Source of the DNA: Chrysomallon squamiferum
Lineage: Eukaryota; Animalia; Mollusca
Direction: 5' to 3'
DNA length: 64,000 nt
Assembly (NCBI GenBank): GCA_012295275.1
Contig: CM022671.1
Span: 6,882,001-6,946,000, forward strand
Part shown: in pieces, positions 116 through 63,814 of the stretch
Numbering within the stretch: position 1 is the first letter of the stretch
Layout: each line of letters opens with the position of its first letter
Notes under the pieces: model-generated
Databases searched by the model: none
Told to the model about the DNA's origin: nothing
What the model saw: only the letters and a program-made list of their open reading frames with translations
Position numbers and translations under genes: made by a program

Positions 116-18185
<18,070 letters not shown>

Positions 18186-20670: not shown

Positions 20671-29703
<9,033 letters not shown>

Positions 29704-34308: not shown

Positions 34309-34487
34309 TTAGCAGTTTCCGAGGACACAGCTCTTCAGTGATTGGTCCCATTTCAAACCCTCAGCACAGCTCATCACATACAGCTGTCCGTTGACGCACC
34401 TGTTGTACTTGTGACAGTCGCTGTTTCCATAGTAACCGCTAGTCCTTCCGGTACAGAAGTTTCCTGAAATTTAAACGTTTATGAAAC

Positions 34488-34530
<43 letters not shown>

Positions 34531-34693
34531 CAGCAATAATAACAACAATAATAATAATGATTATGATGATGATGATGATGATGATAATAATAATAATAAT
34601 AATAATAATAATATGAAAAATATAAATAATGGAATTAGTAGTGGTGGTAGTAGTAGTTAGTAGTTATATTAATAATAATAATAATAATAATAA

Positions 34694-34724
<31 letters not shown>

Positions 34725-37700
34725 AAGACAAAGAAAAACAACTGGTAAAACTGTTTAGTAGTGTTATAATTAAAAAAAAAAATTGATTTACTTGGTGCGG
34801 GCGTCGTCGTTGTGGTAGTTGTGGTTTTCTCGACGTGGACGCAGGTCAGAGAACGCTGTGACCAGATGGTGGCGTCAGGACAGACGTGAAGGACGGCTCG
34901 GCCGACTGAACACTGGTAGAAACGTCGTTTGTTGTGCGCGTGCGGCAGAAACGTAACAGCAGCCTCAGGACAGCGATCTGAAAATACGTGCAGTGTCGTG
35001 TTAACACGTGTACTATCACTCGTATCACACGTGTACTATCAGACGTATCACACGTGTACTATCACACTATCACACGTGTACTATCACACTATCACACGTG
35101 TACTATCAGCCGTACCACACGTGTTCTATCAGCCGTATCACACGTGTACTATCACACTATCACACGTGTACTATCAGCCGTACCACACGTGTTCTATCAG
35201 TCGTACCACACGTGTACTATCAGCCGTACCACATGTGTACTATCAGCCGTACCACACGTGTACTATCAGCCGTATCACACGTGTACTATCACACTATCAC
35301 ACGTGTACTATCACACTATCACACGTGTACTATCAGCCGTACCACACGTGTTCTATCAGCCGTATCACACGTGTACTATCACACTATCACACGTGTACTA
35401 TCAGCCGTACCACACGTGTTCTATCAGCCGTATCACACGTGTACTATCACACTATCACACGTGTACTATCAGCCGTACCACACGTGTACTATCAGCCGTA
35501 TCACACGTGTACTATCACACTATCACACGTGTACTATCACACTATCACACGTGTACTATCAGCCGTACCACACGTGTTCTATCAGCCGTATCACACGTGT
35601 ACTATCACACTATCACACGTGTACTATCAGCCGTACCACACGTGTACTATCAGCCGTATCACACGTGTACTATCACACGTGTACTATCACACTATCACAC
35701 GTGTACTATCAGCCGTACCACACGTGTTCTATCAGCCGTATCACACGTGTACTATCAGCCGTACCACACGTGTTCTATCAGCCGTATCACACGTGTACTA
35801 TCACTCGTATCACACGTGTACTATCACACTATCACACGTGTACTATCAGCCGTACCACACGTGTACTATCACACTATCACACGTGTACTATCACACTATC
35901 ACACGTGTACTATCACACGTGTACTATCAGCCGTACCACACGTGTTCTATCAGCCGTACCACACGTGTACTATCAGCCGTACCACATGTGTACTATCAGC
36001 CGTACCACACGTGTACTATCAGCCGTATCACACGTGTACTATCAGCCGTACCACACGTGTACTATCAGCCGTACCACACGTGTTCTATCAGCCGGTGTTT
36101 TTAACTATCAGCTATCGTCCTATCAGCCGTATCAACGTGTACTATTTTACTATCACACTATCACACGTGTACTATCAGCCGTACCAACGTGTTCTATCAG
36201 CCATCACACGTGTACTATCAGCCGTATTATCAGCCGTAACACGTGTACTATCGCTCGTATCAACGTACTATTATCACGTGTACTATCAGCCGTACCACAC
36301 GTGTTATCAGCCGTATCACACGTGTACTATCACACTATTTTTGTACTATCAGCCGTACCCACGTACTACTATCACCGATGTTTATTTACTATCACACTAT
36401 CACACGTGTACTAGGTCGTACCACACGTGTTCTATTTACGTTATTATTCGTGTACTATATATTTACTATCACATGTACTATCAGCCGTACCCACGTGTTT
36501 AAGCCGTAAAATCAGCCGTACCAAAGAATCAGCCGATTACTATCAGCCGTATCACGTGTACTATCAGCCTGTACTATCACTGTAGCACGTGTTCTATATA
36601 AACAAATCAAGTAAATGTACTATCAATAAACACGTGTTCTATCAAAATCAATGTACTAATGAACGTGTACTAAGCCGTATCACACTATCACATACAGACA
36701 TGTTTAACACACTATCATCTAGATCCAACTTTAACAACTACCACCTACACCCATTTTTAACGCACTATCACCTACAGCTATTTTTAACAACTGTCACCTA
36801 CAACTATTTTAAGACACTATCACCGTTGTTTATTTATTTACTTTCAAGATAGGTCATAACTGATTTATTATTATTCTTTATATTTTAAAATTATTATTGT
36901 ACTTTAACAAAATATTCTAATAAAGAATGATTACCAAATATCAAGCTTCTGTAATCACTGTAGCATAAAAATTATCTAAACAAATCAGTAACTGAATAAA
37001 TAAGAAAATGAATGAATGAATGAATAAATAAAATAAATAAATAAATACTTTCCTAATATTATTTATACTGAACTTATTATCATCGTACGTACCTCCGCAT
37101 TCTTCTTCATTACAGGTCACAGTTCTATTCTCACTGGCCTCTCCCTCACAGTCTGCTCCCCCGTACTGAGGGGTGGGGTTCGTGCACTCCCTTTCTCTGT
37201 GTTGTGCTTTTGTGCCGCTGCCGCAAAGCACGTTGCACTCGTCGTAGTCAGTCCACGCCGTGAACTCACTCCAGCCGCCGTCAACTACGTCAACAGCAAC
37301 ATCTTAATACTTGTATGTTAATTTATTTACATCAACTACGTGAACAACAACATCTTAATACACAATATGTTTATTTATTTACATCATCTACGTCAACAAC
37401 ATCATCTTAATACTTGTATGTTTATTTATTTACATCAACTACGTCAACAACAACATCTTAATACACAATATGTTTATTTATTTACATCAACTACGTCAAC
37501 AACAACATCTTAACACACAGTATGTTTATTTATTTATATCCACTACGTCAACAGCATTTTAATACATAATATGTTTATTTATTTACATCAACTACGTCAA
37601 CAACATCTTAATACTTGTATGTTTATTTATTTACATCAACTACGTCAACAGCAACATCTTAATAGACAATATGTTTATTTAATTACATCAACTAGGTCAT

Positions 37701-38135
37701 ACAACATTCTAATTACGTATATCAGAAAATAGGTCACAGATGAGTTAGAACCACTGTAGACTATTTAACAAGTAACAAAAATACTGAACTCTGTCGACTC
37801 GGTTTAGAGAAAATTCTTACTTGGACAATGGTTTGTGTTGCATTCTCTCTCTTCTCCGTCTGTCGAGTCTCCTTCACAGTTGGCTCCTCCATAAGCAGGA
37901 GCTGGATTAGTACAAGTTCTAGACCGAGACCTCGCCTGTGATCCGCCTCCACACGTGACAGAGCACGTGGACCAGTCTGACCAATCGCTGAATTCTGACC
38001 ATCCACCATTAACTGAAACACAAACGGATAACTGATTTTAGTGTCTGTATAAATATTTGTAACCAAAACAGTTTACAGTTTCTGTGCTTTTAACAGTGAA
38101 TTTATTTATTTATTTAGTTAGTTAGTTATTTAACT

Positions 38136-38166
<31 letters not shown>

Positions 38167-38196
38167 TTTTTTTTTTTTTTTTTTTAATTTTTTTTT

Positions 38197-38227
<31 letters not shown>

Positions 38228-40088
38228 TTGTTTGTTTGATAAAGAAGATGAATATGACAAGAAAGTTAATGAGGACAAGGAAGGTGAAGTGATAAACTCA
38301 CTAGGACACGGCTGTGTGTTACAGCGTCTTGTTGAGCTGTCGGTGTCGCTGCCAGAACAATCAGCTCCGCCATAAGCTGGCGCTGGATTGGTGCACGTTC
38401 TGCTCCTAGATCGTGATTGGCTGCCTCCAGCGCATGACGCCGAACACGTGCTCCATTCTGTCCAATCATCGTAGTCGCTCCAGCCTCCGTCAACTTAAAC
38501 CGAAAAAAGAAAATGAATATCACTTTGTGTCAGGGAATTCTTAATTAAACATTTATGCTAAAATCAGTGAAAAAAAAAGAAAAAAAAAGAGTTTTTATTG
38601 AAATGTGTGTGAAATAAGTGTTTATGATAAAACAGTCAAATAAATGTTTGTTGATTTCAGTTAAATAAATATTTTTGCGGAAGTTGGTAAAACTAATTAC
38701 TGATATCAGTGAAATATGTATGTATGTATGAATGTATTTATGTATTTATTTATTTATTTATTTATTTGTTTATTAGTAGTAGTATTTAAAGTAACAGTGC
38801 CTCAAGACACGTTTTAACGTGAGGGGTCACATTTTCACCTGGGCAGTGATTTCTGTTACAAGGTCTTGTTTGCTGCCAGCTGGACTGGCCAGAACAACTT
38901 CGGCCATTACAAGATGGTGCCGGGTTGGTGCACGTGCGTGACACAGTTTGTGACTGTGTTCCTCCTCCGCACGTGACACTGCACGTGCCCCACGAGCCAT
39001 ATTTAGTAGCACTCCAGCCTCCGTTCACTGAAAAAAAAAAAAAAAAAATTAAATAATAATCATAATAATAAAGCTAAAAGGCTTAAAAACAGACTGATTT
39101 CATACGGAAAATAAGTAACTTGACGTAATTATTATCGAGTCTTCTAAAAAGAAGAAGTCAAACAACAAAAACAACAACAAAAAAACAAAAAAAAAAATCC
39201 AACAACAACAAAAGAACAAAACCACAACAACAAATAAAAAATTAGGTCACAATCGTTTTTCATTGTTAATGGTTAAAACGTTTCTTACGTTCATGAATGT
39301 TTATTTGTGGTATAAGTATAAACACGGTAACATTATTACGTCATTACATTCTTTGATTTACTTTTTTAAAATATTGTAATAATCGAAAATCTTTTTTATC
39401 TCTCTCTCTCGTTTTTATATCACTTAGTGTAGTTATTTAACTAAGTTCGTATATTACTAAGTGTATTTTTTTTTAGCTAATTCAGTATATCACTATGTTT
39501 TTATTTAACTAAGTATATTACTTAGTGTAGTTATTTAATTAGTATATTACTAAGCGTAGTTATTTAACTTACTATATCACTGTGTATTGTTATTTAACGA
39601 AGTAAGTATATTATTAAGTGTAGTTATTTAACTAAATTAATATATCACTATGTGTTGTTATTTAACTAGGCATATTTCTTAGTTTAGTTATTTCTTAGTA
39701 TATAACTAAGAGTAGTTATTTCTTAGTTAGTATATATCTGAGAGTAGTTATTTAATCGGGTTAGTTAACACACTATTAACTACATCGGTACTGTTACCTG
39801 GACAACAGTGTGTGTTACATCTTCTTGATTCTTTCGTTGTAGAGCGGGCACCACCACATAAACTACTACAGCGGACATACTTGGTTCTGGACTGCAGACC
39901 TCCCCCACAGGTAGACGAGCACGTGTCCCACCCTCCGTATGTAACACTTGGAGCTGCCCAAAATGAAATGCATTTTAATAATAAATCTCTTTTTTTTTAT
40001 AAATTTTAGTAAACAAAATAACACAACAACAACAACAACAAAAACAAGAACTATGATGATGATGATGATAATGATAATAATAATAATA

Positions 40089-40134
<46 letters not shown>

Positions 40135-41360
40135 GAAGAAGATTAAGGTGAGAAAATAATAAAAGTCTTACCTGGACAGGTACGTTGTTCATTTCTGTAG
40201 CAGGTGTACGTATACGACCTATAGGTACAGGTAAATGTGAACTCAATGTTTATTTCATTGTACTAGTAAACGAATATTTATTAACACAACATTTGTTGTC
40301 TGTACACAATTTAAAAAAATATTTATTAACATAACGTTTATTGTCTGTACACAGTATTAAAATATTTATTAACGTAACATTTGTTGTCTGTACATAATTT
40401 TAAAAAATATTTATTAAGCTAACGTTTATTGTCTGTACACAATATAAAACTATTCATTAAAATTAACGTTTATGGTCTGTATACAGTATAAAAATATTTA
40501 TTAATGTAACATTTGTTGACTGTACACTGTTAAAAAATATTTATTAACATAACGTTTATTGTCTATACACAGTGTAAAAATAGTTTTTAACATAACGTTT
40601 ATTGTCTATACCTAGTATAAAAATATTTACTAACAAAACATTTATTATCTGTACACAGTAATAAAAACATTTATTAACACAAAGTTTATTGTCTGTTTAC
40701 AGTAATAAAAACATTTCTTGTAATAAAGTGTATTGTCTGTTTACAGTAATAAAAACATTTATTGTAATAAAGTGTACTGTCTGTTTACAGTAAAACAACC
40801 ATTTATAAACATAAAATTTACTGTCTGTTTACAGTAATAAAAACATTTATTAACATAACGTTTAATGATTTGTAATTTTCTTTTCGTTTGAGTTAAATAA
40901 TACGTTTCTAAATCAAACAAACGAGCGAAGACAAGACAGACAGAAATGACGAAGGAGGTTAAAGCAAGTACAGACCTGCGACATCTACTCCAGCCCCAGA
41001 ATCCACATCTTGTGTTTCTGTAACCAGTGCAGGTTCTGCGTGCGCGGTACGTGTACGTGCGTGGACACCTTAACACAGAACATTTATATGTTACAGTGGT
41101 CGACACAAAACTTGACGTTACAGTAAACTGTTACTTGTTATGTTACAATGTTTAACGTAAAAAAAAAATGAAAAAAAAAATGAAATAAATAAATAAATAA
41201 ATAAATAAATAAAGAAAAAAAAGAAGAAGAAGAAGAAGAAGAAGAAGAAGAAAAAGAAGAATTAGTAGTAGTCGTAGTAGTATTCAACATCGACTTACGT
41301 GGCGACGACAGCCACAAGGACAAGACTGAGCGACAGCAGGTACAACGTCACAGAAGCCAT
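34309..41360 (-). CDS. Gene B: secreted TSR / CBM14 protein (~487 aa; signal peptide, Cys-hairpin module, 5 TSR, CBM14 + Thr linker + CBM14)
   Basis: Exons: 41360-41299 ([21 protein letters not shown]), 41068-40976, 40218-40172, 39953-39798, 39027-38839, 38493-38302, 38012-37821, 37284-37093, 34977-34792 (DRCPEAAV...RFYQC...[14 protein letters not shown]...[11 protein letters not shown]), 34463-34309 (FCTGR...[11 protein letters not shown]...[19 protein letters not shown]). Total 1464 nt in frame. Confidence 0.88.
34998..36720. repeat. 22/23-bp minisatellite with an ACACGTGT palindrome
   Basis: Units TATCAGCCGTAYCACACGTGTAC and TATCACACTATCACACGTGTAC; decays after ~36090; abuts the acceptor of exon 34977. 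Confidence 0.95.
37281..37720. repeat. ~52-bp tandem repeat containing the minus-strand acceptor + exon start (~8 copies)
   Basis: Unit TCAACTACGTCAACAACAACATCTTAATACTTGTATGTTTATTTATTTACA. On the minus strand it reads ...GACGTAG|TTGA, the real acceptor of exon 37284. Confidence 0.9.
39420..39770. repeat. Degenerate ~30-35-bp AT-rich tandem repeat
   Basis: Recurring TATATTACTAAGTGTAGTTATTTAACT. Confidence 0.75.
40270..40865. repeat. ~41-bp minisatellite, also present in paralogous intron 53880-54030
   Basis: Unit AAAATATTTATTAACATAACGTTTATTGTCTGTACACAGTAT. Confidence 0.85.
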
Positions 41361-42828: not shown

Positions 42829-54549
<11,721 letters not shown>

Positions 54550-59749: not shown

Positions 59750-62700
59750 CTAAAAGAAACACTTTCCGTTGGAAGCCAACTGACACTGTTTGGTCTCATC
59801 GTTCCACGCATGCGCAGACGGACACTTCCTTTCGACGACTCGATGACCCATCAAGCAGAAAATGAACTTGTTGCACTCGTCAGGGTGTGGCTGGTTCAGG
59901 CCTCGCCTCAGGTCGCACGAGACCGGCGCGCACCGTTCAGCCGTCTGCTTCCACGTGCCGAGATCGGGGCACGTGGCGAGGCGCGCCACCTGGTGGTCGT
60001 CGCATTCGTAGTAAAGATGACTGTCTTCGGCGTGCGGGTGGAACCTGCGTTCTCCTTTAGGGCAGAGATCTGATAACAGAGGACGAGGTTATCATCATCA
60101 GTTTCATCTGAGTTATCATATTAATCATCAACATCATTTTTATTTATTGTCACAGTTATCATCACAGCAACCGCTATAATTATCGTATTATAATGTTTCA
60201 TTCTAATAATCGTTATAATATTATAATCATCATCATATTAATACTTATAATTTTATTTATCATCAAAATAGTCATTATAATGCTAATAATCATCACAGTT
60301 ATCGTTGTTGCTGTTGTTGTTACCTCCACATGGCTGGGTGTGGCACGGTCCTGGGTTCTGGAACTCTACGCTGACCCCCTCACACTGTTTGCCGCCGTAC
60401 AGAGGGGCGGGGTTGGAACACGATCTGCTCCTGGAAAGGTTCGTTTGCCCTCCCCCACAGAGAACTGGACATTCGTCCACTGGGGTCCAGTCGTCCCACT
60501 CTGTCCACTGCCCATGAACTGAGGCAAAAGAACAACAGTAAGAAAAATAAATCAATCAATGTAATAAAATATATTAAAATAAAGTAAAATTGTTTTATAA
60601 TAAAAAAATAAATAAATAAAATAATAATGTTAAAATATTAAAAATAAAATTAAAATAAAAGTTAAATTTTTTTTTAATTTAACTAAAAGTAAATGAAATA
60701 CAAAATTAAAAAATACTTTAAATGATTTTATCACACACACACACACACACACACACACAAGTTAAAGGTATACACACTTTAGTATCACATACACATGCTT
60801 ACTTTAATACAATTATATCTAACCATACACATCTAACTAATAATCTCTACCTAATTATATAACCTAACAATTCGTACATATTGTGTATAAAAGTATGTGT
60901 ATTATATGTAATGTTGTTCAATTTTATTCTTTTTTTTTGCTATTTTTTATCGGTTTTGCTGTATTTTCTGTATGCGGGATGTTTAAATGATAAACTATTT
61001 TTCTACATTAAAACCCGACACACTCACTTGGGCACGGTTGTGTGTTGCATTCTCGTTGTTCTTCCTGAGTTGCTTCCCCTACACAATCAGCGCCGCCATA
61101 CTGCGGTTCGGGGGCGGAGCATGTCCTAGACCGCAACCTTGTCTGTGATCCGCTGCCACAGGTCACCGTGCAGTCAGTGTAGGGACCCCAGTCACTAAAC
61201 TGGCTCCAATGACCGTCAACTGTAAACAAGACAACGCTAAATTATCGGTGCACTGTTTAAATAAACGTTCCTGTGCTATTTATTTAAACTGACGTTCTCA
61301 CTGTTTTCCAGGTAGCATGTTACTTACAGTGTATTTAAAACAGTTTTATACCTAATTATCACATGATTTGTTTTGGCCCGCTTAAATAATATTCGCTTCA
61401 AGTGTCGCCCACCGAACTCTTTTTTTTTTTTCTTTTTTTTTTCAAATCGTGTTCTGATTGGTCGATTGTTTACGATTTCTTGTAAGATAAGTTGTAATCT
61501 CGTGATTTGTTTTACAACAATCAAATTATTTACCTAAATGATTCAGTCTGTTTGTTACATAACATTTATACACGTTTTCTGCGCGACTTGCCGATTCACC
61601 GCTATTTTCGATTTCGGAAGACGCATAAATACTAATTGATTTCCTTAGCACAAAATCGAGAATGCAGTGCGTTAAACCAATCGCTAGAATGCGCAGCGCA
61701 ATCTAAAGATGGAGCAAATCGACAAAACGTTCTGAACACATACACACAAACAGTAGTTATAACTGAGTTACCATAAATTTAATTTTATATATATAAAAAA
61801 AATCACTCGGCCTTGGGTTAATCAACAGTCGTCTTCATTGGATTCAGTTTCAGAAATGACACAACATGTACATATTTCTCACTTGAACCTGTTTTCATCT
61901 TTATAGCTGTGCCTGTACAGCTGAACAATATACAGAAAATAAACAACATAAACAATATTATAAATTCAGTTACCAGGGCAGTGTTGTTTGTTACATTCTC
62001 TGACGTCAGTCTGTGACAAAGTATCACACTCTTTCCCGCCATATTTTGGAGGCTCGCACGTTCTGGTTCTCTGGAAAGTCATTTGTCCAGTTCCGCATGA
62101 TTTAGTACATTCGTCTATTGGTTCCCATGACGACCATTCTGACATCACTGCGTCAACTGTGAAAATAAGTATGTAATTATATAAGTAAAGTAAGTAAGTA
62201 AATAAATAAATAAATAAATAAAAAATTAAAAGTTATAAAACTTAAAATTAAAAAAAAAAAAAAAGATGGGATTGTAGACTAAGATTTATATATTCTTGGT
62301 TTCACAAATGATGCGTTTTATTTCCCTGCAAAACCAATTCTATGTTGTCGTTGTTTTTTTGTTTTTGGTTTTTTTTTTTGTTGTTGTTTGTTTGTTTGTT
62401 TGTATGAAATACAGTGGTACCTCGACATACGAGTGCCCTAACTTAAGAGTTTTCCGCGTTACGAGCAGTCGCTTTGGTGATATTTTGCTTTGAGTTGCGA
62501 GGCAGTATCCAAGTTACGACTGAGCTTCAGAAACGCCGCCGCTAGTTGGCGCAACGAACAACACAGCATTCGGACAGCATCCCGCGTTTCACTCGTTTAC
62601 TTCACGTGGTTACCTCGTCGTGGAAGCATCTCTGTTGTGTTGTGTTCGCGTTTTATGTAGTATTTTGCTAAATTTCTTTTTTTTCTGACCATGGAATCGT

Positions 62701-63568
62701 AAGAAAGTGAGTGCAAAGGACAGTGCTGAGAAGAAGAAGCGGATGACATCCATTGAATCAAAGCATGAAGTCATAGAAAAACATGAGCGAGGTGTGCATG
62801 TAGTCGACTTGGCTAGGCAGTCCGAGCGTAGTACTTTTACGATATGTACCATACTGAAGCTGTAACTCCAGCCAATGGCGTTAATATAATTTATGTGATC
62901 TCCAAGATAAATACACTTTACAAAACCAGTTTATTTCTTTACATTCTCTTTTATTTTGTTTTTATATAATATTTGTCATTTATAAATACATTTGTTACCA
63001 AAAAAAAACACGTTTTTAGGGGCTGGAAAAAATTAATGGTATTTCAATTAATTTTAGTTGGAAAAATTGATTTGATATACGAACATATTGAGCTACGAGC
63101 TCGGTCACGGAACGAATTAAACTCGTAAGTCAAGGTACCACTGTATATGAATACAGCTTAATAATGTGCATATAACAAACGAATAAAATTTAATTTTATA
63201 TATATAAAAACAAATCACTCGGCCTTGGGTTAATCAACAGTCATCTTCACTGATTCAGTTTCAGAAATGACACAACATGTACGTATTTCTCACTTGAACC
63301 TGTTTTCATCTTTATAGCTGTGCCTGTACAGCTGAACAATATTTAGAAAAAAAAAAAACATAAACAACATTATAAATTCAGTTACCAGGGCAGTGTTGTG
63401 TGTTACATTCTCTGACGTCAGTCTGTGACAAAATATCACACTCTTTCCCGCCATATTTTGGAGGCTCGCACGTTCTGGTTCTTTGGATAGTCACGTGGCC
63501 GGTTCCGCATGATTTAGTACATTCATCTATTGGTTCCCATGACGACCATTCTGACATCACTGCGTCAA
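59750..63568 (-). CDS. Gene D (5'-partial): TSR-repeat / tandem CBM14 protein
   Basis: Phase-1 TSR exons 63568-63386, 62156-61974 (near-duplicate), 61219-61028 and 60518-60324. Last exon 60069-59750 encodes DLCPKGE...LYYEC...CPDLGTWKQTAERC plus CDLRRGLNQPHPDECNKFIFC...CPSAHAWNDETKQC...GKCFF*. Confidence 0.85.
62412..63143 (+). mobile_element. Non-autonomous Tc1/mariner-superfamily (Tigger/pogo-type) DNA transposon
   Basis: Inverted termini CAGTGGTACCTCGACATACGAGT ... ACTCGTAAGTCAAGGTACCACTG with a TA target-site duplication on both sides. Internal 62701-62860 translates KKVSAKDSAEKKKRMTSIESKHEVIEKHERGVHVVDLARQSERSTFTICTILK, a CENP-B/psq-type HTH transposase N-terminus; no DDE domain. Confidence 0.9.
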
Positions 63569-63814
63569 CTGAAAAAAAAAAATAACAGCAGTAGTAGCAC
63601 TAGCAACGACAACAAAGTGACGTTACCAGTAGTACTAGTGGCGGATAATAGTAGTAGTAACAGTAGCAGTAATGGTAATATGGTAGTGGAAGTAATGACA
63701 GTAGTCGTAATTGTGGTAGAGCTGGAATAAGAAGAATAATGTGATAAGAATTTATAAAAACTGATAATAGCAGTGAGCTTTTGACATAATATACATATAC
63801 ACGCATACATAAAG

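What the first reader, a model, noticed from the sequence alone, without database searches (positions are those of the whole stretch)
40172..41068. N-terminal module with mirror-symmetric, co-varying cysteines: predicted disulfide-laddered beta-hairpin
Seen: B is [46 protein letters not shown] (C-11-C-7-C-7-C-7-C-7-C). A is [35 protein letters not shown] (C-3-C-9-C-7-C-9-C-1-C). C is [46 protein letters not shown] (C-5-C-5-C-7-C-7-C-7-C-5-C-1-C). Spacing either side of the central 7-residue aromatic loop is equal (9/9, 7/7). Gene C has two extra Cys relative to B, at mirror positions (5/5). Inference: nested disulfides staple a long Arg/Tyr/Thr-rich antiparallel hairpin with a Trp/Phe tip. This recalls tachyplesin/protegrin-type hairpins and, loosely, EMI domains.
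Basis: partly seen in the sequence, partly recalled or inferred. Interest (0 to 1): 0.8.

Follow-up and report, generated by a model that had tools for sequence, protein, structure and literature searches.

The report
Shortened EMI-like hairpin on snail chitin-binders
Three neighbouring snail genes for predicted secreted chitin-binding proteins start with a short cysteine-rich module that is predicted to fold as a two-stranded hairpin and is likely a trimmed version of a known animal matrix-binding domain (EMI) that annotation misses, not a free antimicrobial peptide.

Summary
The cysteine spacings are as written, and gene B's module splice is seen in RNA contigs of 4 of 4 runs (one study). 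Splicing of A and C is untested. Gene B encodes signal peptide, module, five TSP1 repeats and two CBM14 chitin-binding domains; its closest hit is Gigantopelta aegis "coadhesin-like". Limpet and oyster proteins carry the module too. AlphaFold gives one long hairpin (pLDDT 80.6); disulfide pairing was not readable. No Pfam family or clear solved fold matches. A scan for the aromatic tip motif found intron-split genes for full-length EMI domains (7 of 14 exon-like hits have a CCxG[WYF] exon, against 0 of 106 other hits). These share the tip, mirrored arms and intron phases 2/2/1. Outside the tip no sequence similarity is detectable, and the EMI CC tail is absent. Best reading: a shortened EMI-like hairpin with extra cysteine pairs, the likely binding head of a chitin-anchored matrix tether. 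Not a canonical EMI member, and not a tachyplesin-type peptide. The scan has noted unrelated cysteine-ladder hairpins in phage and bacterial DNA; this family was not among the notes returned.

The parts
41299..41360 (-). Gene B exon 1: start codon and predicted signal peptide (hydrophobic, 21 residues; judged by eye)
   Evidence: RNA contig depth in this bin for 3 of 4 runs
40976..41068 (-). Gene B exon 2: first strand and aromatic tip of the module (4 Cys), phase 2 to 2
40273..40864 (.). 44-bp tandem repeat (13.5 copies) filling most of intron 2; non-coding
   Evidence: skipped in RNA contigs
40172..40218 (-). Gene B exon 3: return strand of the module (2 Cys), phase 2 to 1
37093..39953 (-). 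Gene B: five TSP1-repeat exons (39953-39798, 39027-38839, 38493-38302, 38012-37821, 37284-37093)
34309..34977 (-). Gene B: two CBM14 chitin-binding exons (34977-34792 with Thr-rich linker; 34463-34309 to stop)
   Evidence: the ortholog P0001 has two CBM14 stretches
28780..29703 (-). Gene A: signal exon 29703-29639, module exons 29335-29255 and 28805-28780 (35-residue module, 6 Cys); predicted splicing
   Evidence: limpet relative P0006
20674..28462 (-). Gene A remainder: 12 TSP1 exons and a CBM14-like exon; predicted
53783..54549 (-). Gene C: signal exon 54549-54488, module exons 54264-54172 and 53829-53783 (46-residue module, 8 Cys); predicted splicing
44500..53525 (-). Gene C remainder: reduced TSP1 exon, tandem TSP1 exons (one frameshifted, one truncated) and duplicated CBM14 exons; predicted

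Best explanation
The module is the N-terminal head of predicted secreted TSP1-repeat/CBM14 proteins of a gastropod; it is predicted to fold as one long beta-hairpin, likely stapled by nested disulfides, and is likely a shortened EMI-like domain that has lost the CCxG[WY] tail. Shown: exons, spacings, gene B splicing, domain order. Inferred: pairing C1-C6, C2-C5, C3-C4 in B, with a fourth pair in C where B has Tyr opposite Arg. In A, B and C every spacing is odd, so all cysteines would lie on one face of the strands along with most Tyr, while Thr is concentrated on the other face. Arms shorter than in full EMI (13-24 residues on the first arm, against 23-25) would be stiffened by extra cross-strand pairs. 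Mechanism (inferred): the CBM14 pair grips chitin, the TSP1 repeats act as a rod of variable length, and the cationic, Trp/Phe-tipped hairpin at the far end binds acidic matrix proteins or glycans. The protein would thus tether a chitin scaffold to a protein or mucus layer.
For: AF2 of the G. aegis module: strands 5-22 and 28-45, mean pLDDT 80.6, five models 80.6 to 52.8. Equal Cys per arm in 9 of 9 modules and co-varying arm lengths. Tip-motif scan: 120 loci returned; 14 are exon-like by a splice rule, 7 of those 14 have an exon with CCxG[WYF] within 600 nt, against 0 of the other 106. Two of the three CC-exon pieces of that gene family that were scanned hit Pfam EMI positions 46-69 at E 0.015-0.022, below the cut-off; EGF exons follow. 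Those EMI domains read C-25-C-7-C-24-CC and C-23-C-7-C-22-CC, so they are mirrored too. They share with A, B and C a phase-2 acceptor just before the first Cys, a phase-2 donor just after the tip and a phase-1 end. EMI is single and N-terminal (PMC3342094, PMC11949838, passages). EMI-like domains of 47-51 residues without the CC exist (MFAP2/5; bioRxiv 10.64898/2026.05.13.724420, first part and passages). The C1-XXXX-[S/T] O-fucose motif is present in 5 of 9 modules, including A, B and C.
Against: The EMI loci were found with the tip motif, so tip identity is circular. With the tip masked, the profile match falls from probability 88.9% to 2.5%, and 1 of 18 arm-only comparisons reached p < 0.05. 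No Pfam EMI hit for any module piece. The 7 EMI loci represent only about two gene types, their splice sites are predicted, and the scan read 16 of 64 parts of the collection. The full-length model is low-confidence over the module (pLDDT about 30). Thr is frequent in the arms (17%), so the fucose motif is weak evidence. No ligand or tissue data exist here.
Confidence: 0.62

Rival explanations
1. An independently evolved molluscan cystine-ladder hairpin that resembles EMI only by convergence at the tip.
For: No similarity outside the tip. No Pfam, PDB-sequence or fold match. The profile search of 1.84 billion representatives gave 2 hits at E <= 0.001: one G. aegis protein and one repetitive ORF that looks spurious.
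Against: Same tip, same three intron phases and same N-terminal position as full EMI genes. That profile also missed true relatives (limpet, oyster, the second module in P0003), so it is insensitive.
Confidence: 0.2
2. A tachyplesin/protegrin-like cationic hairpin that acts on microbial membranes, either tethered to chitin or cut free.
For: B module has 11 K+R against 1 D+E, 9 aromatic residues and an aromatic tip; predicted hairpin. Chitin-framed barrier membranes exist in animal guts (PMC6109156, listing and abstract start only).
Against: Spliced in frame to TSP1 repeats in 4 of 4 RNA runs. It is 35-53 residues, against about 17-18 for those peptides (recalled). The full EMI domains found here have the same tip and Tyr/Thr/Arg-rich arms. 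B vs C dN/dS is 0.64, like the TSP1 exons (about 0.6), so there is no sign of arms-race evolution.
Confidence: 0.12
3. A degenerate TSP1 repeat that kept strands B and C and gained a long inserted loop.
For: The module ends in Cys-Pro like the neighbouring TSP1 exons and has Arg-rich alternation. The language-model look-alikes of the oyster module were TSP1 clusters, at scores of 0.80 or less, a lead only.
Against: Profile of 9 modules against 13 window TSP1 exons: probability 0.4%. No WxxW strand. Two exons of phase 2/2/1, whereas TSP1 exons are single and phase 1/1.
Confidence: 0.06

Closest known systems
EMI domain (Pfam PF07546; EMILIN/multimerin, MEGF10, EGFL7, SCO-spondin)
   Same: Single, N-terminal, after a signal peptide; Cys-rich with antiparallel strands; tip motif and intron phases shared with full EMI genes found here; C1-XXXX-T in A, B, C.
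   Different: 33-53 residues instead of about 80; no CC / WRCCPG(Y/F)xGxxC tail; one or two extra Cys pairs inside the arms; no Pfam hit; followed by TSP1 repeats and mostly CBM14.
EMI-like matrix-binding domain of MFAP2/MFAP5 (also SNED1, VWA2; bioRxiv 10.64898/2026.05.13.724420)
   Same: About 47-51 residues, disulfide-rich antiparallel structure, lacks the CC, low sequence similarity to EMI, extracellular matrix context.
   Different: No Pfam hit of any kind for our modules; structural superposition and O-fucosylation could not be tested; different host proteins.
'Coadhesin-like' / 'SCO-spondin-like' TSP1 proteins of G. aegis (XP_041347701, XP_041347702, XP_041349174), Patella caerulea and Ostrea edulis
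   Same: Orthologs or close relatives with the same head module and TSP1 array; CBM14 in the gastropods.
   Different: Their names come from the TSP1 repeats; the head has no domain annotation; the oyster protein lacks CBM14.
Tachyplesin / protegrin beta-hairpin peptides (recalled)
   Same: Cationic, aromatic, predicted disulfide-stapled hairpin.
   Different: Those are short free peptides cut from precursors; this is a 2-3 times longer domain of a large modular protein.

Membership tests
EMI domain (canonical) | Single copy at the N-terminus of a secreted protein | tested here: met
   9 of 9 modules directly follow a predicted signal region; the oyster one after a short spacer
EMI domain (canonical) | About 80 residues | tested here: not met
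   33-53 residues; definition from PMC3342094 passages
EMI domain (canonical) | C-terminal CC motif, WRCCPG(Y/F)xGxxC | tested here: not met
   absent in 9 of 9 modules
EMI domain (canonical) | Match to Pfam PF07546 | tested here: not met
   no EMI hit at E <= 10 for 4 whole modules or 3 exon-2 pieces; whole spliced A, B, C modules were not scanned
EMI domain (canonical) | Two long antiparallel strands held by three disulfides | tested here: inconclusive
   hairpin predicted; pairing not readable; no EMI chain among fold matches, and PMC11990869 states no EMI crystal structure is available
EMI domain (canonical) | C1-XXXX-[S/T] O-fucose motif (PMC11949838) | tested here: inconclusive
   5 of 9 modules, 4 of the 5 being close kin; 7 of 7 full EMI loci
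EMI-like (MFAP2/5 class) | About 50 residues, disulfide-rich, antiparallel, no CC | tested here: met
   size, Cys content and predicted fold
EMI-like (MFAP2/5 class) | Structural match to EMI models; O-fucosylation by POFUT3/4 | not testable with these tools
TSP1 repeat | WxxW strand, six-Cys TSR pattern, single phase 1-1 exon | tested here: not met
Tachyplesin/protegrin-type peptides | Short free peptide released from its own precursor (recalled) | tested here: not met
   in-frame splice to TSP1 exons; proteolytic release in vivo not excluded
Tachyplesin/protegrin-type peptides | Membrane-disrupting antimicrobial activity | not testable with these tools
   needs assay; PDB sequence searches skip chains under 20 residues

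The most novel reading that the evidence does not exclude
Molluscs carry an unrecognised family of 'mini-EMI' cystine-ladder hairpins whose reach is tuned by paired indels and paired cysteine gains. Mounted on chitin-anchored TSP1 rods, they act as cationic grips for microbes or acidic glycans at chitinous surfaces of vent snails and other molluscs. This would show the EMI fold to be a telescoping hairpin and give a tethered-hairpin recognition system.
Probability: 0.2. Interest if true: 0.62.

Novelty: new variant of a known kind. Interest (0 to 1): 0.36.

Why it matters
It adds an unannotated, compact branch to the EMI/EMI-like fold, present in two gastropod lineages and a bivalve and missed by Pfam. 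Natural variants with 3 or 4 predicted disulfides and different arm lengths make the minimal EMI core, and whether POFUT3/4-type O-fucosylation extends to it, directly testable. It also gives a domain-level hypothesis for a class of molluscan chitin-binding TSP1 proteins now labelled only 'coadhesin-like'. The building blocks are all familiar, so the surprise is moderate.

Tried and rejected
Word-index protein searches found only G. aegis with the module as query (1 of 12 and 2 of 2 candidates). The limpet and oyster relatives appeared only via the TSP1 region (25 hits of 69 candidates, read by eye). P0004 was dropped as a repetitive ORF with no cysteine ladder. PDB sequence searches: 0 hits at E <= 10. 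Fold searches: no Foldseek match at E <= 0.001 and best VIA Z 3.1, generic hairpins only; this is no evidence of a new fold. ESM Atlas: no usable hit for the G. aegis module. Full-length model uninformative (mean pLDDT 46.6). Homodimer prediction: no answer, score 0.00, neither for nor against. Positive selection between B and C: not found. Shell/sclerite protein: in the supplement of PMC11871041 the 'coadhesin-like' shell protein is an astacin-CUB-TSP1 protein, and no protein carried both PF00090 and PF01607 in the rows seen (15 of 17 and 15 of 15; file cut when stored, one file unreadable), so there is no support for a hard-part role. In one search locus L073 was spliced to a wrong acceptor and was left out of the comparisons; 5 AT-rich exon-like loci showed no CC exon in the DNA held (4 of them hold under 500 nt downstream), and 2 GC-rich ones look like chance. 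No whole genome was held, and the genome index did not complete, so range in other animals is open. Literature: searches (EMI terms) found no description of this module; one search was too loose to count.

Full report
Setting. The window is AT-rich, microsatellite-rich animal DNA. An isoleucyl-tRNA synthetase gene lies on the plus strand (Pfam hits at about 17 kb). A tandem cluster of TSP1/CBM14 genes follows on the minus strand. The nearest named relative of gene B is Gigantopelta aegis 'coadhesin-like isoform X2' (P0001), so the source is likely a peltospirid vent snail (inference).

Observation. Gene B reads signal peptide, 46-residue module, five TSP1 repeats, CBM14, Thr-rich linker, CBM14, about 487 residues. 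RNA contigs of 4 of 4 runs (one study) join exon 2 to exon 3 and exon 3 to the first TSP1 exon, and one 1570-nt contig runs from exon 2 to the last exon. Splicing of A and C was not tested with RNA. Mirroring is exact only for inner pairs, and in a single module it is not much beyond chance (P 0.19, 0.045, 0.27).

Relatives. G. aegis has B-type modules in P0001 (and its isoform P0005), P0002 and P0003, spacing 11-7-7-7-7. A second gene apparently fused into model P0003 has spacing 6-6-8-8-5. Patella caerulea P0006 has an A-type module (3-9-5-9-1) before TSP1 and CBM14. Ostrea edulis P0016 has a longer one (10-13-7-14-3) before TSP1 repeats. All 9 modules examined have equal numbers of cysteines on both arms, and inner arm lengths co-vary (r = 0.95, n = 4, related sequences). 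Between A and B both arms differ by two residues. In C a Cys pair stands where B has Tyr opposite Arg. The module is as conserved between gene B and G. aegis (39 of 46) as the next two TSP1 repeats (41 of 52, 44 of 63).

Fold. AlphaFold2 on the G. aegis module with a 6-row alignment gives two 18-residue strands around a 5-residue turn, mean pLDDT 80.6, pTM 0.39. Disulfide pairing cannot be read from that output, and the strand ends suggest staggered rather than directly opposed cysteines. The full-length model was uninformative. Fold searches returned only generic hairpins.

What it is. No Pfam family matches the module. Of 120 loci, 14 are exon-like by a fixed splice rule; 7 of these have a CCxG[WYF] exon within 600 nt, against 0 of the other 106. 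Where the splice could be built, the domain is C-25-C-7-C-24-CC or C-23-C-7-C-22-CC, followed by EGF exons. Two of the four CC-exon pieces scanned give sub-threshold Pfam EMI hits (E 0.015, 0.022); none of the six first-half pieces does. These genes have a phase-2 acceptor just before the first Cys, a phase-2 donor just after the tip and a phase-1 end, like A, B and C. So full EMI domains are themselves mirrored hairpins with this tip, and the snail module looks like one with shortened arms, extra Cys pairs and no CC tail. The caveat is circularity: the loci were selected on the tip, they represent about two gene types, and with the tip masked no similarity remains (probability 2.5%). The non-circular evidence is the CC enrichment, the intron phases and the position.

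Literature. PMC3342094 (passages) defines EMI as about 80 residues, N-terminal, with WRCCPG(Y/F)xGxxC, and notes that EMILIN1's EMI is in exons 2 and 3. PMC11949838 (passages) gives the C1-XXXX-[S/T] fucose motif and two antiparallel strands. PMC11990869 (passages) lists SCO-spondin among EMI proteins and says no crystal structure exists. bioRxiv 10.64898/2026.05.13.724420 (first of 8 parts and passages; its supplements are closed and could hold the alignment needed) describes EMI-like domains of 47-51 residues lacking the CC. PMC11871041 (passages, supplement rows) gave no sign that a TSP1+CBM14 protein is in peltospirid shell or sclerite proteomes. PMC10381214 and PMC13425148 (passages) added only context. 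No paper on this module came up in searches.

How it likely works. Inferred from domain order: CBM14 domains anchor the protein on chitin, TSP1 repeats (5 in B, 12 in A, tandemly expanded in C) form a spacer, and the hairpin at the free end presents a Trp/Phe tip and Arg/Tyr-rich strands (B: 11 K+R, 1 D+E). By analogy with EMI and MFAP2/5 domains it would bind other matrix proteins or acidic glycans and cross-link a chitinous layer. A role in gripping microbes is not excluded. Origin from a TSP1 repeat is unlikely (probability 0.4%), and there is no sign of positive selection between B and C (dN/dS 0.64).

Verdict. Real and expressed (gene B). It likely works like an EMI/EMI-like interaction head, fails canonical EMI membership on size, CC motif and Pfam, and is best filed as a new compact variant. 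Interest 0.36.

Noticed in passing
window 46114-52400 (minus): Gene C carries TSP1 exons in about 1.05-kb tandem units, three encoding an identical repeat; the copy at about 50257-50529 is frameshifted and the one at about 52200-52400 is truncated. Recent expansion, decay or assembly error; unresolved.
   Followed up: partly
window 53391-53525 (minus): Gene C's first TSP1 exon is shortened and has a changed cysteine set compared with the matching exon of gene B.
   Followed up: partly
window 44500-45480 (minus): Gene C's CBM14 exon occurs twice, near-identical, differing in the length of an Asp run.
   Followed up: no
window 59750-63600 (minus): A fourth TSP1/CBM14 gene (D) whose 5' end lies beyond the window; whether it has the module is unknown.
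   Followed up: no
window 16905-17656 (plus): Two exons of the IARS1 gene each hit the IARS1 ubiquitin-like domain; large intronic minisatellite arrays at about 10-15 kb and 35-36.5 kb.
   Followed up: no
P0003 (XP_041349174), around residue 1070: The RefSeq model appears to fuse two tandem genes: a second signal peptide and a divergent module (6-6-8-8-5) follow the first CBM14.
   Followed up: partly
L025:1225-1380 (also L079, L107): An EMI-like first exon with 31 residues between the first Cys and the tip; no CC exon found in the 1.5 kb held downstream of L025.
   Followed up: partly
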